Below are positions 10,811 to 48,753 of a DNA stretch of 64,000 nt, piece after piece; positions within the stretch are counted from its first letter, which is position 1; each line of letters begins with the position of its first letter. The notes below the pieces were generated by a model. The model was not told the origin of the DNA. It was given only the letters and a program-made list of their open reading frames with translations, and made no database searches. This DNA is from Escherichia coli (GTDB lineage: Bacteria; Pseudomonadota; Gammaproteobacteria; Enterobacterales; Enterobacteriaceae), in NCBI RefSeq assembly GCF_003790525.1, contig NZ_CP033635.1; one strand, 5' to 3'. Both the position numbers and the translations under genes were made by a program.

Positions 10811-10868
10811 CTTTTTTTGCCGCAGGCGCTGGTTCGCAGACTACTAAAATAATACGCGGTTTTTCATT

Positions 10869-12101
10869 TTACGGACGGGCAGCCAGAAGACACAGTTGAA
10901 ATGCCACATTATACGATTCCTCAAAGGATTTTAGAGGTAGAAACTCAAATATGGAGTGAAAATTATGTGCGCCAGTAAAAAAATTAGGCGTCAAAATTCC
11001 TCTGGCTGACAGAACTGCACCATCAGTTCCACCACGCATTGGTATCGGTTTTGGTGTAATTCCCAGCATATTCATGGACTCAAAGAGTAGATCTACAGCA
11101 CGTCTGTCTTTGTTTAAAGCATTACTAATATTGCTGTAGATATCAGTGATCGTGAACTCAACCCTGGCTGTCGGATATCGGGAAGATATTTTATGTGCAA
11201 CAGCAGCAATCTGTTGTTTTCTGCGAGTAAAACTGGATTGATCAAAATCACGTATACTTGCCTGTAACACAGCATTACTTTGTCCGGCATTCATACCATT
11301 GAACCAGATATAACCTTCACGACCAGCGGTATTCTCCGGTGTTTCAAGGCGATCAAATTCATTTATGTAATCACAGGCCATCAGTAATGGATTAACTAAT
11401 ACATTTTTTGCAGACATCGGATGTGCCGTTACACCAGTAAAACGGATCTCTGCAGATGCAGCGTTAAAGTTTTCATAAACAATCTCTCCTGACTCGCAAC
11501 AGTCAATTGTCCAGGCAAAGTCAACAGAAAAACGTTGTAAATCAAGAGACTTAGCTCCACGCAAGCCTGTTTCCTCATCAGGGACAAATGCAACCACAAT
11601 ATCACCATGCTGATGTTCTGAGGTCAGATTCTCCAGCATAGTCATCACTACCGAAACAGCGGCTTTATTATCAGCCCCTAGTACACTTGTTCCGTCGCTG
11701 AAAATAATGTCTTCCCCCCGATATTTCAGAATTTCGGGATGCTCTTTGACCCGCAGCCAGATATCTTTTTCTGCATTGAGACACAAATCTTCACCTGTAA
11801 ATTTCAAAATTTGTGGATGAATATCCGGAGATAAACCAACATCTACTGTATCAATATGAGTAATGAAACCAATTCGAGGCGCACCCGGAATATTACCTTT
11901 TTTCACCGCGGTGACCGTTGCATGCTCATCAACAATAATATCGTCCATATCCAGCAACGCCAGTTCATCTGCAAGTGTCCGGGCCATCTCATACTGTCCT
12001 TGTGTGGACGGAAGGGATGCTGAATTTGGGTCACTCTGGCTACTGATTGAAAGGTAGCGAAAGAAACGTTGGATTAATTGACTGCTTAATGGGGAGTACA
12101 T
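10869..12101 (-). CDS. peptidase T-like tripeptidase (M20B family)
   Basis: PepT-like motifs (LGADNKAAV, DEETGLRGAK, NFNAASAEI, RGGTDGA); start taken at MYSPLSS with AAGGAA SD. Confidence 0.75.
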   Translation of the reverse strand: MYSPLSSQLIQRFFRYLSISSQSDPNSASLPSTQGQYEMARTLADELALLDMDDIIVDEHATVTAVKKGNIPGAPRIGFITHIDTVDVGLSPDIHPQILKFTGEDLCLNAEKDIWLRVKEHPEILKYRGEDIIFSDGTSVLGADNKAAVSVVMTMLENLTSEHQHGDIVVAFVPDEETGLRGAKSLDLQRFSVDFAWTIDCCESGEIVYENFNAASAEIRFTGVTAHPMSAKNVLVNPLLMACDYINEFDRLETPENTAGREGYIWFNGMNAGQSNAVLQASIRDFDQSSFTRRKQQIAAVAHKISSRYPTARVEFTITDIYSNISNALNKDRRAVDLLFESMNMLGITPKPIPMRGGTDGAVLSARGILTPNFFTGAHNFHSIFEFLPLKSFEESYNVAFQLCLLAARP

Positions 12102-12219
12102 AACTTTTCCTTCTTTTTTTGTGTTATGAGGTGAATGCAATACGCATTTAATGTTATTTATTAATCTGTAAACGATGCGGATTCATCACTCCATATTGTC
12201 AAAGAAAACAGGAAAAGTC

Positions 12220-13812
12220 ATGGTAAGAAGATTAGCGACTATTGCACCGTTACTGGTTGCGTTGGGTGTAAGCTCAACTGTTTATGCAAAGACACTGGTT
12301 TACTGCTCTGAAGGCTCACCTGAGAGTTTTAATCCTCAGCTTTATACTTCGGGGACCAGTGTTGATGCAAGTGCTGTTCCGGTGTATAACCGACTGGTTG
12401 ATTTTAAGGTGGGCACTACTGTGCTGGTTCCCAGCCTGGCTGAACGATGGGAAATCAGTGGTGACGGGAAAGCATATACTTTTTATCTGCGTAAAGGCGT
12501 TAAATTTCACAGTAATAAATACTTTACTCCAACGCGAGAGTTTAATGCTGATGATGTTATTTTTTCATTTATGCGCCAGAAGGATCCTGGTCATCCATAT
12601 CACCAAGTTTCTGGTGGGACGTATTCTAATTTTGAAAGTCTGGAATTCAGTTCACTCATAACCAGTATCGACAGAGTTGATGATCATACAGTTCGCTTTA
12701 ATCTTTCACATCCGGAGGCTCCCTTTATTGCTGATTTAGCCTGGTATTTTGCTTCTGTTTTATCCGCTGAATATGCTGATGCTATGCTTAAAGCCGGAAC
12801 ACCTGAACGGGTTGATATGAATCCAATTGGGACAGGGCCATATCAACTCAAACAATATCAGAAAGATTCGCGTATTTTATTTACGGCTTTTGATGATTAC
12901 TGGGAGGGGAAAGCAAAACTGGAACGCATTGTTTTCAGTATCACACCAGATTCCTCAGTGCGTCTGGCTAAACTGGAGAAAAATGAGTGTCAGGTGATGC
13001 CGTTTCCTAATCCATCAGATCTTTCCAGAATCAAAAAAAATCCGGCTCTTAAATTGATGAGTAAAGCCGGACTTAATACAGGTTTTCTTGCTTTCAATAC
13101 GCAAAAAGCTCCTCTGGATAATGTAAAAGTTCGTCAGGCACTGGCAACAGCAATTAATAAAAATGCCATTATAGATGCTGTATTTCAGGGGACTGGTAGT
13201 GCTGCTAAAAATCTGCTGCCACCAGGAGTATGGAGTGCAGACAGTGAATTGAAAGATTATGAATATGATCCAGAAAAAGCCAGATCATTGCTAAAAGAAG
13301 CTGGTTTTGATAATGGAATGACTATTGATCTTTGGGCGATGCCAGTTCAACGCCCTTATAACCCAAACGCTAAACGAATGGCCGAAATGATTCAGGCTGA
13401 CTGGGCAAAAGTGGGAGTAAAAACAAACATTATCACTTTTGAATGGGGGGAATATCTTAATCGTATAAAGAACGGAGAGCATCAGGCTGCGTTGATGGGA
13501 TGGACAACCGCAACAGGTGATCCTGATAATTTTTTTGGTCCACTCTTTACCTGCACTTCTGCTAACGGTGGTTCTAATTCCGCGAAGTGGTGCTACAAAC
13601 CTTTCGATGAAATTATTTCTCAGGCTAAAGTAATAACTGATCAGGAAAAACGAGCAGTGCTCTATAAAAAAGCACAACAGATGATGCATGAACAAATACC
13701 AGCGGTGATGATTGCACATTCCACCATTTTTGAACCAATACGCAATGAAGTCACAGGTTATGAAATAGATCCATTTGGTAAACATATTTTTTATCAGGTT
13801 GATATAAAATAA
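12220..13812 (+). CDS. DppA-like periplasmic dipeptide (and possibly heme)-binding ABC substrate-binding protein, orphan
   Basis: About 530 aa after signal peptide; long collinear similarity to E. coli DppA (KTLVYCSEGSPE.FNPQL..., WAMPVQRPYNPNA.RMAEMIQADWAKVGV); no permease or ATPase genes follow. Confidence 0.8.
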   Translation: MVRRLATIAPLLVALGVSSTVYAKTLVYCSEGSPESFNPQLYTSGTSVDASAVPVYNRLVDFKVGTTVLVPSLAERWEISGDGKAYTFYLRKGVKFHSNKYFTPTREFNADDVIFSFMRQKDPGHPYHQVSGGTYSNFESLEFSSLITSIDRVDDHTVRFNLSHPEAPFIADLAWYFASVLSAEYADAMLKAGTPERVDMNPIGTGPYQLKQYQKDSRILFTAFDDYWEGKAKLERIVFSITPDSSVRLAKLEKNECQVMPFPNPSDLSRIKKNPALKLMSKAGLNTGFLAFNTQKAPLDNVKVRQALATAINKNAIIDAVFQGTGSAAKNLLPPGVWSADSELKDYEYDPEKARSLLKEAGFDNGMTIDLWAMPVQRPYNPNAKRMAEMIQADWAKVGVKTNIITFEWGEYLNRIKNGEHQAALMGWTTATGDPDNFFGPLFTCTSANGGSNSAKWCYKPFDEIISQAKVITDQEKRAVLYKKAQQMMHEQIPAVMIAHSTIFEPIRNEVTGYEIDPFGKHIFYQVDIK

Positions 13813-14910
13813 CAGGTGTAAGCTCCGTCTGTGACGTCTGGTGATAGTTGTCCAGTCTGGTAACAATAGCGTCCATCTATACAGATGGACGCGAATGATG
13901 AATTTTCAGACAACAAGATATTGATGGTTTTCGTTTTTATCTGCCCGACGCATTACGTCTAATATTCGAAGAACAATTATCTGTCTAGTTAATCGCTCAT
14001 CAGTCAGGGCTAAGTCATTTCACCATCACGATTTTTTTAACTATTACCCGAATGAGCAAAGTGAGGATGATGCCATGACGCAGGTCAGAGCGACCAGCAC
14101 CGCGACAATTAATAAAACAGGAAGGCTGCGCGTTTCAGACAGTGATGTCAACATAAACTATCAGTAACGTTAACTGCATCAGAAGCACAAGTATGGATTT
14201 TACCATTGTGCAGAACGACTTGCCCATGGGAAATAATAAATTTAATAAAAAAAGAAAGATATGGTTGCAAATATTATAATATCCCGGGCAACGATCCTGA
14301 TTTTCTCAATACATGTTTTCCTCACGTATTTGTTCTTCAAAGAGCAATCAGCATCTGTTACTGAATGGTTGTTATGAGCATTAAAAGAATAACGGGAAGT
14401 CGGTGACGTGGGGATATGTCGCGTGTTGAATTATACAAAGGGCCGACATCTTCATGGTGTCGGCCAGTCATAAGTGCCAGATATTAACCGTCAGTTACAG
14501 GGGGTAACCGCAGGAAACAGGCTACGCTCCGGGTAACGGGTTATCAATAGTTATTTATTTACTTAAATTCAGTGATTTTGTTCTGTATCATTGCGCTTTC
14601 TTACTGGTATAAATAATGATCGATTGATTTTCGCATGAGCATCAGAATTTGTCGTAATTTGAGGTCCAGGTGCTGTACATACAGGAATATGGTTCTGTCA
14701 GCGGTAGATTGCCGTTGCTGAGCAGAATGTTCAGGCTGGATGGTGAGATTACAGCTGATATTGCTGTGCTGATGGCAGAATGGTAAACGTTAAGTGCGCG
14801 TTCCCGGCAATGAAGGCAAACACGTCATGACAGCAACGCAAAATAAACCAGGAACGCGCGGTATTTTTTATCCCGAATGAAAGCGATTGTCCATATCCGG
14901 TAATAAATAT

Positions 14911-15162
14911 TCAGCAGTATGTAAAGTGCGGTTTGCCCGGTTCTGGTGGAAGGGGCTCCAGATACACATCATCAACAAACACACACGGGAATTTATCCAC
15001 CGGGCAGCCTGCACGGTCAGCCATATCCTGCAGCGTCACACTGTGCTTCGCGACATCAATAAACACAACATCCGGTTCCATTTCATCGGGGATTCGGGTT
15101 GCGTGATGCATAATGCGATGGACTGAAGGGCAGTGACGGTAACCAAAAACACGTATACGCAT
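14911..15162 (-). CDS. small hypothetical protein (83 aa), possibly thioredoxin/glutaredoxin-fold
   Basis: Strong AGGAGG SD 7 nt upstream of ATG; fold assignment speculative (MRIRVFGYRHCP...). Confidence 0.4.
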   Translation of the reverse strand: MRIRVFGYRHCPSVHRIMHHATRIPDEMEPDVVFIDVAKHSVTLQDMADRAGCPVDKFPCVFVDDVYLEPLPPEPGKPHFTYC

Positions 15163-15485
15163 GATGTACCTCCTGGTTGCAGGGTGACTGTATCATCAGA
15201 CCTTATCATGCGTTTAAAAAATGTACTGTAACTCACATTTTTTGGTAAGACGGTGGCTATTACTGCAAATGATGATGGCTCAGTTTTTATTTTTTATTCA
15301 ATATTTTCATGTTGTTATTGTTATTTTGTTTGTTCATACCCTGTGTGGTTCCCCGTTCTTTACATTCAGGCACTTCCGTTTCCTTTAACGTTTTCGTTAC
15401 TCTCTGAAGCTTGTGGTATCTGTGATTACTGATGCCTGCCGTCATACTGCGAAATACCGGATATCAGACCGTGGAGGATTCTGCC

Positions 15486-16058
15486 ATGCAACGCTGGTTT
15501 CTGCCTTTTCTTGCGTCTCTGTTGCTGTTACAGGGTTGTGTTGCCGCTGCGCTGGTCGGTACGGCTGCTGTGGGTACTAAAGTGTCAGTGGATCCCCGAA
15601 GTGCGGGAACGCAGATTGATGATGAAATTCTGGAAGCAAGGGTCAGCCGTGCGCTGTCGAAGGACTCACAACTCAGGGGTGATGCGCGAATTATCGTCAC
15701 AGCATACCAGGGCACTGTACTGCTGACAGGGCAGGTACCAGACCGTAGTGCAGGTGAAAGAGCCCGTCAGATTGCAGATGGTGTTGAGGGGACTGTGCAG
15801 GTATGGAATGAAATAAGGACGGGAAAACCACTCCGTGCTGATAAAACAACCACTGATGCCTGGCTGACCACAAAAATCCGGGCACAGTTACTGAAGAGCA
15901 GCCGGGTGAAACTGTCAGATGTAAAGGTACTGACGGAGAATGGTGAAGTCTTTCTTATGGGGAGAGTTACAGAGAAGGAAGGACAGGCTGCTGCAGATAT
16001 CGCCAGTCGCGTGGCGGGGGTGAAACACGTCATCACCGCATTCAGTTATATACGATGA
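15486..16058 (+). CDS. BON-domain lipoprotein, paralogue of DolP (YraP)
   Basis: Lipobox LLLLQGC, two BON-like segments, strong resemblance to YraP (LQGCVAAA.VGTAAVGTK...DPRS.GTQ.DD); GGAGGA SD before the internal ATG at 15486. Confidence 0.75.
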   Translation: MQRWFLPFLASLLLLQGCVAAALVGTAAVGTKVSVDPRSAGTQIDDEILEARVSRALSKDSQLRGDARIIVTAYQGTVLLTGQVPDRSAGERARQIADGVEGTVQVWNEIRTGKPLRADKTTTDAWLTTKIRAQLLKSSRVKLSDVKVLTENGEVFLMGRVTEKEGQAAADIASRVAGVKHVITAFSYIR

Positions 16059-16105
16059 GTATGGAGAGCCCGTTCGTTCGGGCTCTGTATTTATCTTCCC
16101 CCCGT

Positions 16106-16459
16106 TCATCCCTGGCGTTGCCAGGTGGCACTTCCGTTCTTACAGTCAACGCGCACACGATACTGAATATCTGCTTTCTTTCCACGGGCAGTGAGATGCA
16201 CAGTGATGACATTATCACCTTTATTTACCGGCTCACGAAGATTCACCCAGACAACGGGACGCTGCTGACCGAGAATTTCCTGGTCATCTTTCCACTGAAA
16301 CACCTGTTTCTGGAGATAGTCCCGTTTGACGCTGGCTGCAACAGTCGATGCTTCCTGTCCTTCACATCGTGGAAAACTGACGGTTCTGTTTTTTTCAGCG
16401 GCCAGTGATGATGCACAGATACCGAAGATGAGCAGAATGGAAGAGAGTGCTTTGTTCAT
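16106..16459 (-). CDS. secreted hypothetical protein (117 aa, signal peptide)
   Basis: N-terminal signal peptide MNKALSSILLIFGICASSLAA; GGAGGA SD upstream. Confidence 0.45.
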   Translation of the reverse strand: MNKALSSILLIFGICASSLAAEKNRTVSFPRCEGQEASTVAASVKRDYLQKQVFQWKDDQEILGQQRPVVWVNLREPVNKGDNVITVHLTARGKKADIQYRVRVDCKNGSATWQRQG

Positions 16460-16773
16460 TTACAGGTCCTCCACAGGGGATAGTTTCATTGAGGAGTTAC
16501 ATCTTAACAACATAAAACAGCATTTCCTGTAACAATCCTCACATAACTTCTTATCCCGTCACTTCCCGTTTCACATGGGCAGCATAGCCTGTTTTTTAAC
16601 CCGTTTTTCAGTCATTTCCATAAACAAATCTTCGCTGACGATAAATCTTTTTTCTGTTTAACGATCGATTTTGTCGATCGATATGATATGTATAATTCAT
16701 TTTACCAATGAGAAATCCATCTTAAAATTGGACAAATTCATATGTCTGAAGGAAACATCAGGAGAGGTGGATT

Positions 16774-17523
16774 GTGAAAAAGTTACTGGCACTCACTGCG
16801 GTAGCTGCGCTTACCGGCACGTTTTCAACGCTGGCGCTGGCAGATGCGGATAAAACCGGGTTCTATATCACGGGTAAGGCTGGTGCATCTGTTATCACTC
16901 AGGATAATCAGCGTTTTAGTCAGGACTTTGGTGATGTTGTTTATAAGTATAAAGGCGGTGACAAGAGCGATACGGTTTTTGGCGCCGGCCTTGCGGTGGG
17001 ATATGACTTTTATCAGCACTACAATGTACCTGTTCGCACGGAAGTTGAATTCTATGGTCGCGGCTCTGCGAATTCCCGCTATACACTGGATACATGGGAG
17101 TCCCCGTCTGGAGATAATGGTTGGAAGGAAGACACACAAAACAGGCTCAGCGTGAATACCCTGATGGTGAGCACGTATTATGATTTCAGAAACAGCAGTG
17201 CTTTCACTCCGTGGGTATCAGCCGGACTGGGTTATGCGCGGGTACATCATAAGGCAACATACACCGATACCACCTGGCATAAATCAGGTGAAGTAAGTGA
17301 TGCTTCTTCATTACATTACTCGGGATATGATAACAATTTCGCATGGAGCCTTGGTGTTGGCGTGAAATATGATGTCACCCCGGATTTCAGTCTTGACCTT
17401 GCTTATCGCTATCTTGATGCAGGTGATTCAACCCTGACGTATAAAGACGGGCAGGATACATATAAATCCTCTGTTGATGTCAGAAGTAACGAATTTACGT
17501 TAGGCGCTACATACAGCTTCTGA
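16774..17523 (+). CDS. outer-membrane beta-barrel protein (249 aa)
   Basis: Signal peptide ending ALA-DA, alternating aromatic/hydrophilic strands, C-terminal ...TYSF; GTG start with GGAGAGG SD. Confidence 0.6.
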   Translation: MKKLLALTAVAALTGTFSTLALADADKTGFYITGKAGASVITQDNQRFSQDFGDVVYKYKGGDKSDTVFGAGLAVGYDFYQHYNVPVRTEVEFYGRGSANSRYTLDTWESPSGDNGWKEDTQNRLSVNTLMVSTYYDFRNSSAFTPWVSAGLGYARVHHKATYTDTTWHKSGEVSDASSLHYSGYDNNFAWSLGVGVKYDVTPDFSLDLAYRYLDAGDSTLTYKDGQDTYKSSVDVRSNEFTLGATYSF

Positions 17524-17534
17524 ATGTAATATCT

Positions 17535-17573
17535 GACTACACGTTGTTAAATTCAAAATCGCAGCGTGTAGTC
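17535..17573 (+). terminator. hairpin after the OMP gene (9-bp stem GACTACACG/CGTGTAGTC)
   Basis: Inverted repeat followed by a T-containing tract. Confidence 0.4.
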
Positions 17574-17735
17574 TGATTTGATAGTTTAATACAACAGACA
17601 CGTACCTTCATGGCACTTCCTTAGCCCCCGGTTACGTTCATTTGTACCAGATGTAAGTGGCGTAAAACCATTGTCCAAATAGTGGCTCTAAAAGATTAGA
17701 TACTCATTTAGATATTATATAGCATAAGGTGATAT

Positions 17736-18089
17736 ATGGGATTTTGGGATGCTATAATGGGATTCGGTAAGCTTGCTTCTAATGCTGCTGCTGAAACGAT
17801 GAAAAAAGTCAATTTCAATGTGTGGGATAAAATAAAATCATCTCCGGTAGAAAGAATTAACGATTTTTATAACCAAAATAATACATCTGAGTATAATCGG
17901 CCAGCATACAGAGGATTGGCTATTGCTGCTCTATGTTTTAGGGGGGATTGGAGCGGGGAGCGTTTATGGCGTGAAGATCAGGAGGCTGCTAATTGGTTAA
18001 AGAATTTTAGAATAAAAATTTCACTGGATACATGTGATTCTGCAGATGAACTACGTAAAATAATCGATCGTCTTACAGAACTGAATTGA
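17736..18089 (+). CDS. hypothetical protein A (117 aa, soluble, no recognised domain)
   Basis: ORF with AAGGTGA SD; AT-rich; first of three co-oriented genes. Confidence 0.5.
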   Translation: MGFWDAIMGFGKLASNAAAETMKKVNFNVWDKIKSSPVERINDFYNQNNTSEYNRPAYRGLAIAALCFRGDWSGERLWREDQEAANWLKNFRIKISLDTCDSADELRKIIDRLTELN

Positions 18090-18178
18090 TTACTGGAGGT
18101 GAAGTTATTTTTATAGGGATAAGTTGAAAATATTTATATGCCCTGTAAGTGTTATTTATATATCGAGAGCGTGAGCCA

Positions 18179-18379
18179 ATGGTCTTTCTTCGACCACCTA
18201 CTACATTTATCTGTATGAATTGTCAATGGAGTAAAACTATTATTCATGTGAACTGTACAACAGGATTTTATGAATGTCCTGTGTGTGGAGAGAAAGTTAT
18301 TTATAAACGTAAGGCTACGATTACAGAAAATCTGTTTTCCAGAGTAATGCAATTCTTTCTTAAAAATCATAATATTTGA
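18179..18379 (+). CDS. hypothetical small zinc-ribbon protein B (66 aa from internal ATG; ORF opens at 18149)
   Basis: C-x2-C ... C-x2-C arrangement (CMNC ... CPVC). Confidence 0.45.
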   Translation: MVFLRPPTTFICMNCQWSKTIIHVNCTTGFYECPVCGEKVIYKRKATITENLFSRVMQFFLKNHNI

Positions 18380-18460
18380 TTGATAATAATAATTGTGTCC
18401 CGATGTCTGGCGGAGATAGTTTTTGGAAAGTGATTGTGAAATTTTTAGGTTTTTTGTTGT

Positions 18461-19117
18461 ATGACTGATAATGAAAATATTCTCACACCATCAAAAATCA
18501 TAAAATTTCTGGATTACGCTTATGAAAAATCCATCGATGGTATTGGTATCCCGGGGATAGATACGGCACATAGTCTTGCGGAAAGTTATCTGAAAACGGG
18601 TAGTAGTTTAAAAGAACAGATAAATAGCCTTATTCGATGGCAGAATACCAAGTCTGCCACATCAGGTTTTCTTACTGGTCTTGGAGGAATTATTACATTA
18701 CCAGTAACTATACCGACCAATATTTCAAGTGTCCTTTTCATTCAGGTCAGGATGGTAGCATCTATTGCGATCATGTGTGGTCAGGATATTCGTGATGATA
18801 AAGTCAGAACTATTGTTTATACCTGTCTTGTAGGTAATGCTGCGAAAGATATTTTGAAGGAAGCAGGAATTCAGATAGGACAAAGGTTGACAACAAATGC
18901 AATTAGATGTATTAGCAAAGAAATTATTGTAAAGATAAATAAGGCTGTCGGTTTCAGACTGCTTACAAAAACAGGTGCTACTGGTGTTATTAATATGTCA
19001 AAGCTTGTTCCTGTTGTAGGAGGAATCGTTGGTGGTAGTTTTGATGCGATAACAACCAACATCGTTGGTAATTATGCCAGAGATACATTCCTGAGTTTGA
19101 TTGATAATGATTTATAA
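18461..19117 (+). CDS. hypothetical protein C (218 aa) with C-terminal glycine-zipper-like segment; possibly EcsC-family-like
   Basis: ORF; Gly-rich segment VVGGIVGGSFDAITTNIVGNYA; EcsC resemblance is from memory and unverified. Confidence 0.5.
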   Translation: MTDNENILTPSKIIKFLDYAYEKSIDGIGIPGIDTAHSLAESYLKTGSSLKEQINSLIRWQNTKSATSGFLTGLGGIITLPVTIPTNISSVLFIQVRMVASIAIMCGQDIRDDKVRTIVYTCLVGNAAKDILKEAGIQIGQRLTTNAIRCISKEIIVKINKAVGFRLLTKTGATGVINMSKLVPVVGGIVGGSFDAITTNIVGNYARDTFLSLIDNDL

Positions 19118-19459
19118 AATAAAAGTTTCATAAAAAATAGTATTTTAGGTGTGCTGACGATAGTGGATACTTTAGTATTATTGCTTCAAGTTGCATAATT
19201 TTTAACTAACATTAGGTATGAAATTATCCTGACTGGCGGGTAATACTGCCGCTCAATATGGCAAGGTTGTATTACACTGCAAGGAGAAATTCATCGCATA
19301 TCCTTACCCACAAATTTGGAGGCTATTTTATTTGCCAGTAATAATCATGTTAATCCTGAGAATATAGTTTGATATCATATGGTTAATCATTTATCTTGAT
19401 AGATATCTTCTGGTTTGTATAGGAATTAACTATTGAATATGTCGCCTGAAATCAGAAAT

Positions 19460-19513
19460 CAAAAAATACAAATGACAGTTAACTCCCCACCAACCACTGC
19501 GGTTGGTGGGGAG
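19460..19513 (-). terminator. rho-independent terminator of the integrase gene
   Basis: Perfect 13-bp stem CTCCCCACCAACC / GGTTGGTGGGGAG with 5-nt loop, followed on the minus strand by a T-rich tract. Confidence 0.65.
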
Positions 19514-19516
19514 GAC

Positions 19517-20710
19517 TTATTTCGTTTTTACGTTTTTCTCCATAAGTGAATCAATGTAATCAGCGTACCACTGCATCATTTCACGACGTCCATCCAGATA
19601 TTGCGCATGGTTATAAGTGCCACGCATGACGTTTTTATCAACATGAGCAAGCTGGAGTTCAATCCAGGCTGAGCTGAAATCATGGTCATGGAGAATGGTG
19701 CTGAAGGTATGACGAAATCCGTGGGCTGTTGTCAGGGCATGCCAGCCTGACTGCTCAAGGAATTCATTGATACACTTGCGGTTTCGCGGGAGATCTTTTC
19801 TGAATGCACCAGGAATAATAAAGGCGGAATTACGCGATTCAGTGCGTGTTTTTATCTCCTCCAGTAACGCCAGTACCTGGCGTGAAAGCGGCACAACGTG
19901 CGGTCGTCGCATTTTCATTCTTTCTTTCGGAATAACCCACAGGGCCTCCGTGAAATTAATTTCGTCCCAGGTTGCCAGTCGCAGTTCTCCGGTGCGAACA
20001 GCAGTCAGAACCAGCATCTGCGTTGCCAGCGACATCAGATTTTCGGATGCCGTTATCTGATGCATGAAAGCTCCCATCTGTTCTTCAGAAAGCGTCCTGC
20101 GCTGTTGTTTTTCAGGAGGAAGCAGTACCCCGCTGAGTGTCGATGCCGGATTAACGGTAGCACGTCCTGTTGCTATGGCATAATCAAAAACCTGCGCACA
20201 GAGCTGGCGTGTTTTACGCAGTGCTTCAAGTTTTCCCTGTTCTTCTATAGTCCTCAGAACGTTCAGTATTTCCATGGGGCGGATCCCGGTCACAGGACGG
20301 TTTCCAAGAGCAGGGAAAACATGATTTTCAAGTCTTGCACGCTGATCTGCCTGGTAACCTGTTGTCCATCGACGTGCCATATGGGTAAGCAGCTCCTCTG
20401 CAATGGTGCGAAATGTGCAGGCCATACTTTCCCTGATGGCAAGTTTTCGCGCCTGTTTTTCATACGACGGATCTTTACCTTCAGCCAGAAGTTTCCGTGC
20501 TTCATCCCGCTTCTGACGAGCCTGAGCCAGTGATATGTCAGGATAGACACCAATCACCAGTTTCTTTTCCTTACCGGCAAAGCGGTACTTCAGATTCCAG
20601 TAACGGGCACCGGATTTTTTGACAAGAAGATAAAGGCCCTGACCGTCAGAAAGTTTGTAATCCCTGTCAGCAGGTTTAGCCGACTCAATTTGTCGAACAG
20701 TAAGTGGCAT
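19517..20710 (-). CDS. tyrosine recombinase, P4-type phage/island integrase (397 aa)
   Basis: Full-length ORF with typical P4-family N-terminus (MPLTVRQIESAKPADRDYKLSDGQGLYLLV) and catalytic C-terminal region (HGFRHTFST...). Confidence 0.9.
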   Translation of the reverse strand: MPLTVRQIESAKPADRDYKLSDGQGLYLLVKKSGARYWNLKYRFAGKEKKLVIGVYPDISLAQARQKRDEARKLLAEGKDPSYEKQARKLAIRESMACTFRTIAEELLTHMARRWTTGYQADQRARLENHVFPALGNRPVTGIRPMEILNVLRTIEEQGKLEALRKTRQLCAQVFDYAIATGRATVNPASTLSGVLLPPEKQQRRTLSEEQMGAFMHQITASENLMSLATQMLVLTAVRTGELRLATWDEINFTEALWVIPKERMKMRRPHVVPLSRQVLALLEEIKTRTESRNSAFIIPGAFRKDLPRNRKCINEFLEQSGWHALTTAHGFRHTFSTILHDHDFSSAWIELQLAHVDKNVMRGTYNHAQYLDGRREMMQWYADYIDSLMEKNVKTK

Positions 20711-20924
20711 GATGTTACCCCTGCAATGTAGCCCCCATAATAGCCCCCAAAATCATCTTGATGTTCATGGAATATGATTTACCCCCAGAGAGAAGGAATT
20801 TCTTATGATACCTTATTTCAAAGGGGGTTAAAGGGGGAGGGGTTATCTCTGTTGAAATCAGTTGATATCAATAGATCCTCCCCAGAGGGGCGAGGGGACC
20901 GTTCGAACTCGTATTTGACTTTGT

Positions 20925-20961: not shown

Positions 20962-22044
20962 TTACGATTTTCTCATTAACAGCCACAGGCTGATTAAGAA
21001 GAAGCTGGCGCTTGGCAACAGTGCGCCGATGATCGGCGGGATGCCATAAACCAACGTCAGCGGGCCGAAGATCTGGTCCAGTACGTAGAAGACAAAACCG
21101 AAGCTGATACCGGTGACCACACGCACGCCCATCGGTACGCTACGCAGTGGGCCAAAGATAAACGACAGCGCCATCAGCATCATCACCGCCACGGATAGCG
21201 GCTGGAAGATTTTGCTCCACATGTTGAGCTGATAACGTCCGGCATCCTGACCGCTCGACTTCAGATACTTCACATAGTTGTGCAAACCACTGATGGAGAG
21301 TGCATCCGGGTCCAGCGCCACCACGCCCAGTTTGTCTGGCGTGAGGTTGGTTTTCCAGGTGCCGCTCACCGTCTGCGAACCGGTGATCTGTTTCGGATTG
21401 GTCAGATCAGATTCATCAACCTGCGACAGACGCCAGACTTTATGTTCCGGGTCAAACTTCGCGGTAGCGGCATAACGTACGGATTGCAGACGACGATTCT
21501 CGTTAAAGGCATAAATACTGATGCCACCTAACTCTTCGTCACCTTTAACCCGCTCAATGTAGACGAAGTTGTTGCCATCTTTCGCCCATAAGCCTTGCTG
21601 AGTGGAGAGCAACGAGCCGCCGTACATCGCCTGCGCACGGTAGTTACGCGCCATCTGCTCGCCCTGCGGCGCGACCCATTCACCAATCGCCATCGTCAGC
21701 AAGACCAGCGGAATGGCGGTTTTCATCACCGACAGCGCCACCTGCATACGGGTAAAACCAGAAGCCTGCATGACTACCAGTTCGCTGCGCTGCGCCAGCA
21801 TCCCAAGACCAAGCAACGCCCCAAGCAGAGCCGCCATCGGGAAGAAGATTTGCACATCTTTCGGCACGCTCAGCAAGGTATACATTCCTGCGCCTAACGC
21901 GTCGTAACTCCCCTGCCCGGCTTTTTTCAGCTGATCGACAAACTTGATAATGCCCGACAGCGACACCAGCATGAACAGCGTCATCATGATGGTGGTGAAA
22001 ATAGTTTTACCGATATAGCGGTCAAGTACGCCAAAAGGTTGCAT
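20962..22044 (-). CDS. lptG: LPS export ABC transporter permease LptG
   Basis: ORF matches LptG; start overlaps lptF stop (TGATG). Confidence 0.9.
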   Translation of the reverse strand: MQPFGVLDRYIGKTIFTTIMMTLFMLVSLSGIIKFVDQLKKAGQGSYDALGAGMYTLLSVPKDVQIFFPMAALLGALLGLGMLAQRSELVVMQASGFTRMQVALSVMKTAIPLVLLTMAIGEWVAPQGEQMARNYRAQAMYGGSLLSTQQGLWAKDGNNFVYIERVKGDEELGGISIYAFNENRRLQSVRYAATAKFDPEHKVWRLSQVDESDLTNPKQITGSQTVSGTWKTNLTPDKLGVVALDPDALSISGLHNYVKYLKSSGQDAGRYQLNMWSKIFQPLSVAVMMLMALSFIFGPLRSVPMGVRVVTGISFGFVFYVLDQIFGPLTLVYGIPPIIGALLPSASFFLISLWLLMRKS

Positions 22045-23144
22045 CACACCGCTCCTTTACGCGAAAAACTGGCGCGCAGGCGGCGGACCGGCACGGTGTC
22101 CCAAAGGTTGAGAACAATCGCCAAAGCCAGATAAATCAGGTTAACGGTCCACATCCACAGCGTCGGGTCCAGCTTACCTTTACCGCCGTTCGATTTCAGG
22201 GAGGTCTGGATCAGGAAGAACAACAGATACAGCAGCATGGCTGGCAGCATCGATAGTACGCGTCCCTGACGCGGGTTAACCACGCTCAGCGGTACGACCA
22301 TAAGTGCCATCATAAACACGGTGAACACCAACGTGATACGCCAGTTCAGTTCTGCGCGAGCACGATCGGTGTCAGTGTTCCACAATGTGCGCATGTCCAT
22401 CTGGTCGGTATCGTTCGGGTCGAGCGCCACCGCCTGGTGACCAATGATCGCCTGATAATCCTGGAAATCCGTAATGCGGAAATCACGTAACAGTGCAGTG
22501 CCTTCGAAGCGCGTTCCCTGGTTGAGAGTGACGACCTGGGAGCCGTCGCGCAGCTGGGTTAAATGTCCGGAATCGGCCACCACCACAGAAGGTCGTGCAT
22601 TACCTTTTGGTCGAATTTGCGCGAGGAACACATCTTTGAAATCGCTGCCGTCAACGCTTTCGATGAACAGCACCGAGCTGCCATTAGTCGCTTGCTGGAA
22701 TTGCCCTTGCGCAAGCGCCGCCATGCCAGGGTTCGCTTTCGCTTCTGCTAACACTTCATCCTGATGACGCGATGACCACGGTCCCGCCCACATCACGTTA
22801 ACCGCCGCGACGATTGCCGTGAATACCGCAAGGATCATTGCCGCTTTCACCAGCACCGCTTTGCTCAGGCCGCAGGCATGCATTACCGTAATTTCACTTT
22901 CGGTATACAGTTTGCCCAGCGTCATCAGCAGCCCGAGGAACAGGCTTAATGGCAGGATAAGCTGCGCCATTTCCGGCACGCCCAACCCGAGAAGGGAGAG
23001 CACCAGATTCGCCGGAATATCGCCGTCAACCGCTGCGCCGAGGATCCTCACTAACTTTTGACAGAAGAAGATCAAAAGCAAGATGAAGAGTATCGCCAGC
23101 TGGCTTTTGAGCGTCTCCCGCACCAGATATCTTATGATTATCAC
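22044..23144 (-). CDS. lptF: LPS export ABC transporter permease LptF
   Basis: 366-aa ORF, LptF sequence and synteny. Confidence 0.9.
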   Translation of the reverse strand: MIIIRYLVRETLKSQLAILFILLLIFFCQKLVRILGAAVDGDIPANLVLSLLGLGVPEMAQLILPLSLFLGLLMTLGKLYTESEITVMHACGLSKAVLVKAAMILAVFTAIVAAVNVMWAGPWSSRHQDEVLAEAKANPGMAALAQGQFQQATNGSSVLFIESVDGSDFKDVFLAQIRPKGNARPSVVVADSGHLTQLRDGSQVVTLNQGTRFEGTALLRDFRITDFQDYQAIIGHQAVALDPNDTDQMDMRTLWNTDTDRARAELNWRITLVFTVFMMALMVVPLSVVNPRQGRVLSMLPAMLLYLLFFLIQTSLKSNGGKGKLDPTLWMWTVNLIYLALAIVLNLWDTVPVRRLRASFSRKGAV

Positions 23145-23407: not shown

Positions 23408-24922
<1,515 letters not shown>

Positions 24923-24934
24923 GTTTGCGTTTTA

Positions 24935-24972
24935 CCCTCACCCTAACCCTCTCCCTAAGGGAGGGGGAACCG
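24935..24972. repeat. C-rich palindromic intergenic repeat (CCCTCACCCTAACCCTCTCCCT-AAGGGAGGGGGAACCG)
   Basis: Near-identical copy at 48575-48616; partial related motif near 20880-20910. Confidence 0.6.
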
Positions 24973-25055
24973 ATCGAGCGCAATAGAAATTCATTGCTCA
25001 TCTTTCAGGGTGAGGAATGCAGCAATATTTAAATCCACCACAAGAAGCCCCATAT

Positions 25056-48569: not shown

Positions 48570-48574
48570 TCCTT

Positions 48575-48616
48575 CCCCCTCACCCTAACCCTCTCCCTCA
48601 AGGGAGAGGGGACCGT
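48575..48616. repeat. C-rich palindromic intergenic repeat (second copy)
   Basis: CCCTCACCCTAACCCTCTCCCTCAAGGGAGAGGGGACCG, near-identical to 24935-24972. Confidence 0.6.
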
Positions 48617-48753
48617 TCCGTGCCCCTTCCTGATTCCCGACATAATGAATTGCCTCTGGCCAGTTTTTGTCGTCGCAAGGAGGCAAATGCGTAGCATCGG
48701 GGGACTTCGCCCGTACGCACCAGAGCATTCATGGCGTCAATTGAGAAGCGAAA

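What the first reader, a model, noticed from the sequence alone, without database searches (positions are those of the whole stretch)
48575..48616. Family of C-rich palindromic intergenic repeats, with a partial copy at the island junction
Near-identical roughly 40-bp elements (CCCTCACCCTAACCCTCTCCCT..AAGGGAG.GGG.ACCG) follow pepA (24935-24972) and nrdD (48575-48616). A related GAGGGGACCGTTCG motif occurs at 20880-20910 between the integrase and lptG. They differ from the canonical REP elements also present in the window. The copy at the island junction raises the possibility that the island boundary or deletion involved this repeat.
Basis: seen in the sequence. Interest (0 to 1): 0.25.

Follow-up and report, generated by a model that had tools for sequence, protein, structure and literature searches.

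The report
BoxC repeat used as island landing site
The C-rich repeats are the known E. coli BoxC (PIT/TMECO) elements, and the half copy next to lptG is the scar left where a large integrase-carrying genomic island inserted into the tip of one such repeat, a target the same integrase also uses at six or more other BoxC copies in other strains.

Summary
There are two full copies (24934-24972 after pepA, 48575-48616 between nrdD and nrdG) and one right-hand half copy (20878-20908). The family is the known BoxC = PIT = TMECO repeat (Holder 2015, PMC4666352); the nrdD copy matches K-12 TMECO#2 34/34.

The half copy is the attR junction of a site-specific insertion. Island-free CFSAN018748 has an intact BoxC between yjgR and lptG. 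Strain CM2, which shares the window's junction, has a ~92 kb island there and keeps yjgR to leuX beyond it, so this is an insertion, not a deletion. In CM2 and GPEC1040, attL, attR and the empty site share a 13-bp core, CTCCCC-NNN-GGGG, which is the BoxC hairpin tip.

The same island end, with integrases at least 96.4% identical in protein sequence, sits at seven BoxC loci: lptG, yhfS, zntA, ycjD, glnH, gcvP and gabT. It is always in the same orientation. A sister clade (82-84%) uses a natural CTCCCCGCCGGGGAG palindrome inside ulaE. Relatives in other genera (34-58%) mostly sit beside tRNA genes.

The gln and ula loci were already known as island sites (Biggel 2020). I found no paper linking them to BoxC, and Holder et al. 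reported finding no integrases at these repeats.

The repeat is known; its use as a multi-copy attachment site looks like a new variant. No recombination was tested experimentally.

The parts
48575..48616 (+). Full BoxC/PIT/TMECO element (type A, TAA second loop) in the nrdD-nrdG spacer. The hairpin stem is 48589-48597 / 48602-48610 and the inner stem is CTCCCT..AGGGAG.
   Evidence: 34/34 identical to K-12 TMECO#2. Fold -19.2 kcal/mol. Present in 408 of 5426 E. coli genomes, with alignments breaking at 48575. K-12 has REP elements in this spacer instead.
24934..24972 (+). Full BoxC/PIT/TMECO element (type A) in the pepA-holC spacer.
   Evidence: 33/35 identical to TMECO#2. Fold -17.6 kcal/mol. 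Present in 1404 of 5426 genomes. K-12 has REP/BIME here.
20878..20890 (+). attR core CTCCCCAGAGGGG, the 13-bp crossover segment. It is the inner stem plus loop of the BoxC copy that used to lie between yjgR and lptG.
   Evidence: It is the only CTCCCCnnnGGGG in the window. It is directly repeated at the far island end in CM2 and GPEC1040. The same junction occurs at 7 BoxC loci and at ulaE.
20891..20908 (+). Chromosomal right arm of the interrupted BoxC copy (CGAGGGGACCGTTCG...) running into the lptG downstream region.
   Evidence: Identical to island-free CFSAN018748 from the core onward. 4,000+ genomes align with the window only from about 20878 or about 20918 onward.
20711..20877 (+). Island-derived arm of the attachment site (attP-derived), between the integrase start codon and the core.
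   Evidence: 96-97% conserved in 16 genomes whatever the chromosomal site.
20729..20749 (+). Pair of TAGCCCCCA motifs 12 bp apart. These are putative arm-type integrase binding sites (inferred).
   Evidence: They are the only two occurrences in 64 kb, with 0.46 expected. The offsets are fixed at -149/-137 from the core, or -159/-147 in two subfamilies with a longer island end. A matching pair lies at +74/+86 on the far island end. All are conserved in diverged subfamilies.
19517..20710 (-). P4-type tyrosine integrase (397 aa) of the island.
   Evidence: Pfam Arm-DNA-bind_3, Phage_int_M and Phage_integrase domains. At least 96.4% aa identical to integrases at six other BoxC loci.
1..20877 (.). 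Right-hand part of the genomic island. Its other end lies outside the window. Cargo includes a TonB-dependent haem receptor, PepT-like and DppA-like proteins, a DolP paralogue, an outer-membrane protein and IS remnants.
   Evidence: 14792-20877 is colinear with the CM2 and GPEC1040 islands and the rest is mosaic. Families.
20962..22047 (-). lptG, the chromosomal gene flanking the insertion site.

Best explanation
The repeats are BoxC (PIT/TMECO) elements. These are roughly 40-bp intergenic units made of three G/C-rich blocks (CCCTCACCC - TAA - CCCTCTCCC(C/T) - 3-4 nt loop - (G/A)GGGAGAGGG). The copies after pepA and nrdD are intact, passive copies of the CTCCCT subtype. They are transcribed at the end of pepA and inside the nrdDG operon, and their presence varies between strains. 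The half copy at 20878-20908 is attR. A large island carrying a P4-type tyrosine integrase recombined its attP with the BoxC copy that lay between yjgR and lptG. Strand exchange took place inside the 13-bp CTCCCC-NNN-GGGG apex of the BoxC hairpin. As a result, the long left arm of the repeat now lies at the far end of the island, outside the window, and the short right arm lies next to the integrase. Shown: the intact empty site, precise attL/attR/attB triads at two loci, and the same island end with identical integrase proteins at seven BoxC loci. Inferred: that the integrase catalyses the event, that the inverted CTCCCC/GGGGAG half-sites are its core-type sites, that the paired TAGCCCCC motifs are arm-type sites, and that the asymmetric A-N-A loop sets the orientation.
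For: Family identity: Holder et al. Table 1 compared with the window copies. Empty site: CFSAN018748 has the intact CCCCTCACCCTAACCCTCTCCCCAAAGGGGCGAGGGGACCGTTCG between yjgR and lptG, and is identical to the window from the core rightward. Insertion, not deletion: CM2 has the window's junction (98.6% over 701 bp) and a ~92 kb island, with yjgR, idnR to ahr and leuX intact beyond it. Its attL is left arm + CTCCCCATAGGGG + island. Second triad: GPEC1040 has an 83 kb island between frlR and yhfS, and attL, attR and the K-12 attB differ only by the swap at the 13-bp core. Multi-site use: the same island end lies at lptG, yhfS, zntA, ycjD, glnH, gcvP and gabT, and in every case the right arm and flank match the local chromosome. 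The integrases are at least 96.4% aa identical. WP_072648864.1 occurs at four different loci and WP_001131672.1 at three. Orientation relative to BoxC is constant in all 14 clade-1 junctions. Core specificity: a sister clade (82-84% aa) inserts into a non-BoxC palindrome, CTCCCCGCCGGGGAG, inside ulaE, in both orientations. Contrast: 36 of 44 of the nearest relatives in other genera (47-58% aa) lie 160-400 bp downstream of a tRNA gene. None of the 80 relatives fetched (34-58% aa) has the palindrome upstream. Conserved paired TAGCCCCC motifs flank both island ends.
Against: No experiment shows that this integrase recombines these sites, and no excised circle or restored attB was observed. The far end of the island in the window's own genome lies outside the window, so attL there is inferred from CM2. 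The 3-nt loop differs between attL, attR and attB. In MS20645 the loop is GGC at a site whose K-12 attB has ATA, which is awkward if strict overlap homology is needed. Site occupancy was read in only 21 genomes and 10 metagenome contigs. The folding energies of the repeats are no better than those of shuffled sequence.
Confidence: 0.85

Rival explanations
1. The junction was made by a deletion. A classical leuX-associated island lost leuX, ahr, the idn genes and yjgR through recombination or illegitimate joining, and the deletion happened to end in the BoxC copy.
For: leuX normally lies a few kb from lptG with a P4-type integrase beside it. No tRNA gene is present in the window.
Against: CM2 has the identical junction and retains yjgR to leuX on the other side of the island. 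The same island end joins six other BoxC loci far from leuX. Both ends carry the 13-bp core.
Confidence: 0.03
2. RecA-dependent homologous recombination, or recombination between dispersed BoxC copies, moved the island. The integrase would be incidental.
For: BoxC copies are near-identical dispersed repeats. The island end contains a G-rich stretch (20823-20850) that resembles the complement of the BoxC long arm.
Against: Shared identity at each junction is only 13 bp. The island sequence next to the core is not BoxC. The crossover falls at the same position at every locus and also at a non-BoxC palindrome in ulaE. Integrase adjacency, constant orientation and paired arm-like motifs fit site-specific recombination.
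Confidence: 0.06
3. Structure-induced fragility. The hairpin or intrastrand triplex of BoxC causes breaks, and foreign DNA is captured at the broken repeat. This is the general instability idea of Holder et al.
For: Holder et al. report higher variability around TMECO loci and triplex formation in vitro. Both full copies in the window vary between strains.
Against: Break repair would not give the same island end, the same 13-bp duplication and the same orientation at seven loci with no loss of flanking bases. Fragility may still explain the REP/BoxC spacer replacements.
Confidence: 0.05

Closest known systems
BoxC / PIT element / TMECO repeat of E. coli (Bergler 1992; Bachellier 1999; Hoyne & Maher 2000; Holder et al. 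2015, PMC4666352)
   Same: Same three-block sequence, intergenic position and strain-to-strain variability. The nrdD copy is identical to TMECO#2. The yhfS and zntA target sites are TMECO#15 and #16 by coordinate. The ycjD and gcvP sites are assigned to #9 and #11 from my own recollection of K-12 gene coordinates plus Table 1, with loops that agree.
   Different: Nothing differs in the elements themselves. What is added is a use: Holder et al. state they never found integrases or transposases at these loci and that the mechanism of instability was unclear.
P4-type (Arm-DNA-bind_3 / DUF4102) integrase genomic islands at tRNA genes, e.g. pheV, pheU, selC and leuX pathogenicity islands
   Same: Same integrase domain architecture. 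The integrase sits at one island end about 170 bp from the junction. There is a short direct repeat at both ends. The islands are large, mosaic and carry virulence or fitness cargo.
   Different: The target is not a tRNA gene. It is a 13-bp palindrome present in many copies, so one integrase occupies at least 7 loci. The nearest tRNA-associated relatives are only 47-58% identical.
[quoted passage not shown] 2020, PMC7686366; also PMC8097792)
   Same: Same two loci (glnP-glnH, ulaD-ulaE) and the observation that they carry their own integrase types.
   Different: Those papers describe the sites at gene level only. I found no att sequence, no palindrome and no link to BoxC or to the other five loci in the text or supplements.
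Mobile elements that target dispersed palindromic repeats: IS1397/ISKpn1 in BIME loops and IS110/IS621-family elements in REP (from my own knowledge, not checked here)
   Same: It works alike: a dispersed structured repeat supplies many equivalent landing sites outside genes.
   Different: Those are small DDE or DEDD transposase elements. Here an 80-90 kb island uses a tyrosine recombinase with a classical attP x attB exchange.

Membership tests
BoxC / PIT / TMECO repeat | Three G/C-rich blocks (GGGTGAGGG / GGGAGAGGG / CCCTCTCCC on the G-rich strand) separated by a TTA or CCG loop and a 3-4 nt loop | tested here: met
   Window copies aligned to the 23 published K-12 sequences: 34/34 and 33/35 to TMECO#2. 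The half copy is 19/19 to #16/19/22.
BoxC / PIT / TMECO repeat | Strictly intergenic, multi-copy, with presence varying between strains | tested here: met
   All three lie between genes. Present in 408 and 1404 of 5426 genomes. 23 copies in K-12 according to PMC4666352.
BoxC / PIT / TMECO repeat | Forms an intrastrand triplex | not testable with these tools
   Only Watson-Crick hairpins can be predicted here. Triplex formation in vitro is reported by Holder et al.
REP / BIME | GCCGGATGCGGCGT..-type 35-40 bp palindromic unit | tested here: not met
   The repeat shares no sequence with REP. REP units occur elsewhere in the window and occupy these same spacers in K-12.
Integrase-mediated genomic island (P4-type) | Tyrosine integrase with arm-binding, SAM-like and catalytic domains at the island edge | tested here: met
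   Pfam PF13356, PF22022 and PF00589. The start codon is 168 bp from the core.
Integrase-mediated genomic island (P4-type) | Direct repeat of the att core at both ends, and an intact empty site in other strains | tested here: met
   CM2 and GPEC1040 triads. Empty sites in K-12 and CFSAN018748. The far end in the window's own genome was not available.
Integrase-mediated genomic island (P4-type) | Integration at the 3' end of a tRNA or tmRNA gene | tested here: not met
   No tRNA in the window. The target is BoxC or the ulaE palindrome. Relatives in other genera do sit by tRNAs.
Integrase-mediated genomic island (P4-type) | Integrase-dependent excision and integration | not testable with these tools
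   Needs an experiment or read-level data. Indirect support: identical integrase proteins at 3-4 different loci.

The most novel reading that the evidence does not exclude
A lineage of P4-type integrases restricted to E. coli has switched from tRNA genes to the hairpin apex of BoxC/PIT repeats. This turns a dispersed repeat of unknown function into about a dozen interchangeable landing pads per genome for 80-90 kb virulence or fitness islands. It would also account for part of the unexplained 'genomic instability' reported at these repeats. The islands may still hop between BoxC copies, carrying the loop sequence of the previous site with them.
Probability: 0.5. Interest if true: 0.7.

Novelty: new variant of a known kind. 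Interest (0 to 1): 0.55.

Why it matters
BoxC/PIT elements have been catalogued since the 1990s with no demonstrated role. The one study that linked them to genome variability found no mobility genes nearby and left the mechanism open. If these repeats are the attachment sites of a family of large integrase-borne islands, three things follow. It gives BoxC its first concrete biological interaction. It explains why islands with the same integrase turn up at unrelated loci, including the 'gln' site noted in uropathogenic E. coli. And it predicts which sites in any genome can receive such islands: 13 of the 23 catalogued K-12 copies carry the core. It is also a natural example of a tyrosine integrase with many equivalent chromosomal targets, which is of interest for genome engineering.

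Tried and rejected
Rfam at gathering thresholds found no family at any of the three sites. MG1655's RefSeq annotation lists no repeat feature at the comparable loci. RNA folding does not distinguish the elements from shuffled sequence, so I did not argue from structure.

The genome-contig scan with the integrase found no close relative outside E. coli (best 58%). It served only as a contrast set. The metagenome pattern scan gave 17 loci, of which 7 were chance matches and were discarded.

Four literature searches for the repeat's name or for a BoxC-integrase link returned nothing relevant. A large review of E. coli islands does not mention these sites. I considered and rejected deletion from a leuX island, RecA recombination between repeat copies, and break-and-capture (see the rival explanations).

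Full report
OBSERVATION

CCCTCACCCTAACCCTCTCCCT occurs exactly twice in the window, at 24935 and 48577, against none in 100 shuffles. GAGGGGACCGTTC occurs exactly at 20892 and 48606.

The window is E. coli. Its layout is: island, then lptG(-), lptF(-), pepA(+), holC, valS … nrdD(+), nrdG. One full copy (24934-24972) starts 12 nt after the pepA stop codon. The other (48575-48616) starts 6 nt after the nrdD stop codon, inside the nrdDG operon. The third sequence (20878-20908) is only the right-hand part of an element. REP elements are also present elsewhere in the window.

WHAT THE REPEAT IS

It is the BoxC element, later renamed PIT element and then TMECO (Holder et al. 2015, PMC4666352). The nrdD copy is identical over 34 nt to K-12 TMECO#2. 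The pepA copy matches the same sequence at 33 of 35 positions. The lptG fragment equals the last 19 nt of TMECO#16/19/22, and its first 17 nt are replaced by other DNA.

- Each full copy can form a perfect 9-bp G/C hairpin (-17.6 and -19.2 kcal/mol). That is no better than composition-matched shuffles (z about -1 to -1.5).
- Both full copies vary between strains. The nrdD/nrdG copy is in 408 of 5,426 complete genomes and the pepA/holC copy is in 1,404. The alignments break at the edge of the element.
- In K-12 both spacers hold REP/BIME elements instead.
- Published work found no promoter, terminator or regulatory activity for these elements. I treat the two full copies as passive members of the family.

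THE HALF COPY IS AN ATTACHMENT-SITE JUNCTION

Most E. coli genomes align with the window only from about 20878 or about 20918 rightward. Island-free strain CFSAN018748 has an intact BoxC between yjgR and lptG (…GTGCCCCTCACCCTAACCCTCTCCCCAAAGGGGCGAGGGGACCGTTCGAACTCG…). From CTCCCC onward it is the same as the window. In the window, the 17 nt to the left are replaced by …TCAATAGATC, which is the end of an island. The island's P4-type tyrosine integrase (19517-20710, minus strand; Arm-DNA-bind_3, Phage_int_M and Phage_integrase domains) starts 168 bp from that point.

Only one genome in the collection, CM2, has the same junction (98.6% over 701 bp). In CM2 the island is about 92 kb long. Beyond it lie yjgR, idnR to ahr and leuX, all intact. 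The event was therefore an insertion, not a deletion. CM2's far junction reads …CCCCTCACCCTAACCCT-CTCCCCATAGGGG-AATGGTGAAAA(island).

ONE INTEGRASE, MANY BoxC COPIES

The island end plus integrase occurs in other genomes next to different genes. I read every junction I could reach. The form is always the same: island …ATAGATC, then CTCCCC-NNN-GGGG, then the local right arm of a BoxC copy, then the local flank.

Sites for integrases at least 96.4% identical in protein to the window's:

| Locus | Where seen |
|---|---|
| lptG/yjgR | window, CM2 |
| yhfS/frlR (TMECO#15) | GPEC1040 |
| zntA/tusA (TMECO#16) | HCM-27C-1 |
| ycjD (assigned to TMECO#9) | strains 135, PK-F-10122 |
| glnH/glnP | five genomes, two metagenome contigs |
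| gcvP (assigned to TMECO#11) | TUM9803 |
| gabT | one metagenome contig |

The #15 and #16 assignments rest on matching coordinates in the fetched K-12 loci. The #9 and #11 assignments rest on Table 1 positions plus my own recollection of K-12 gene coordinates; the loop sequences agree.

- K-12 has the intact element at the yhfS, zntA and glnH sites.
- One identical integrase protein (WP_072648864.1) is found at four loci, and another (WP_001131672.1) at three.
- In GPEC1040 I found both ends of an 83 kb island. attL, attR and the K-12 empty site differ only by the exchange at the 13-bp core, and no chromosomal base is lost.
- Orientation relative to BoxC is the same in all 14 junctions of this clade.

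WHAT IS RECOGNISED

A sister clade of integrases (82-84% aa) inserts inside the ulaE coding sequence at a natural palindrome, gcgCTCCCCGCCGGGGAGtgc. That palindrome is not a BoxC element, and it is used in both orientations. So the common requirement is the CTCCCC-NNN-GGGG palindrome.

- Thirteen of the 23 catalogued K-12 BoxC copies carry this palindrome.
- The two full copies in the window have CTCCCT…AGGGAG instead. The attR core is the only CTCCCCnnnGGGG in the 64 kb window.
- Both island ends carry a pair of TAGCCCCC motifs 12 bp apart. On the integrase side they lie at -149/-137 from the core, or -159/-147 in two subfamilies with a longer island end. On the far side they lie at +74/+86. 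They are conserved in diverged subfamilies and are the only two occurrences in the window. I infer that they are arm-type binding sites of an attP of about 250 bp.
- I also infer that the asymmetric A-N-A loop fixes orientation at BoxC, and that the nearly symmetric GCC/GGC loop allows both orientations at ulaE.
- The loop often differs between attL, attR and attB. That fits a loop lying in the overlap region. The GGC loop seen at glnH in MS20645 remains unexplained.

CONTRAST WITH RELATIVES

The closest integrases in other genera are 34-58% identical. Of the 44 nearest that I checked (47-58% identical), 36 lie 160-400 bp downstream of a tRNA gene. None of the 80 fetched has the palindrome upstream. 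The change of target looks specific to this lineage.

WHAT WAS ALREADY KNOWN

BoxC itself is known. [quoted passage not shown] The supplements of PMC7686366 that are held as text do not mention att sequences or palindromes.

Holder et al. wrote that they never found integrase or transposase remnants near these repeats and that the mechanism of the associated variability was unclear. I found no paper connecting the two. The library excludes much subscription literature, so prior description cannot be ruled out.

VERDICT

The repeat is an old acquaintance. The partial copy is not debris: it is one half of a BoxC element split by site-specific integration of a large island. The same integrase uses at least seven BoxC copies. 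All of this rests on comparative sequence evidence, and recombination itself has not been tested.

Noticed in passing
window 24923-25016 and 48570-48753, compared with K-12 loci L004 and L125: In both spacers where the window has a BoxC element (pepA/holC and nrdD/nrdG), K-12 MG1655 has REP/BIME elements and otherwise unrelated spacer sequence. The two repeat families appear to be alternative occupants of the same intergenic slots.
   Followed up: partly
L015 (K-12 ulaE, about 3447-3461); L008, L012, L123, L124: A sister integrase clade inserts inside the ulaE coding sequence at CTCCCCGCCGGGGAG, in either orientation. This truncates ulaE (annotated 13 codons short in EF5-18-41), so carriers have probably lost an intact ascorbate operon.
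   Followed up: partly
window 20823-20850: The island end contains aaagggggttaaagggggaggggtta, a G-rich stretch that resembles the complement of the BoxC long arm (GGGTTAGGGTGAGGG). It could be a binding site, a mimic of the displaced arm, or chance.
   Followed up: no
L036 about 22230-22270 (CM2 attL) compared with L014 (K-12 glnP/glnH): CM2's far junction has the loop ATA. Among the sites I read, ATA is otherwise seen only in the glnH BoxC copy, and the lptG site has AAA. This may mean the island previously resided at glnH and carried the loop with it.
   Followed up: no
L013 (MS20645) and L022 (metagenome), glnH junction: These integrases are 96% identical to the BoxC clade and sit at the glnH BoxC copy, but the core loop is GGC, the loop typical of the ulaE site. 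That would be three mismatches to the K-12 glnH loop ATA, which is hard to square with strict overlap homology.
   Followed up: no
NZ_AP023208.1 (70 kb plasmid) 9914-9955: Seven matches to the nrdD BoxC copy lie on plasmids (for example 97.6% over 41 nt), although the 2015 study reported that the motif was not found on plasmids.
   Followed up: no
window 23969-24163 (-), 41560-41675 (-), 58579-58655 (-): Rfam gathering-level hits: Ysr276 antisense RNA inside pepA, the Mg2+ riboswitch upstream of mgtA, and naRNA4 (a REP-derived nucleoid-associated RNA).
   Followed up: no
window 1-14800; L003, L010: Only the roughly 6 kb next to the integrase is shared with the CM2 and GPEC1040 islands. The rest is mosaic: in the window a TonB-dependent haem receptor (7517-9487, minus strand), PepT-like and DppA-like genes and IS66 remnants; in other strains tellurite resistance, an S6 autotransporter and sitA.
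   Followed up: partly
L036 30145-48000 (CM2, beyond leuX): CM2 also carries a decayed P4-type integrase at leuX, followed by a defence island (Wadjet JetD, type II Zorya, phosphorothioate-dependent restriction). So the classical leuX site and the BoxC site 8 kb away are both occupied.
   Followed up: no
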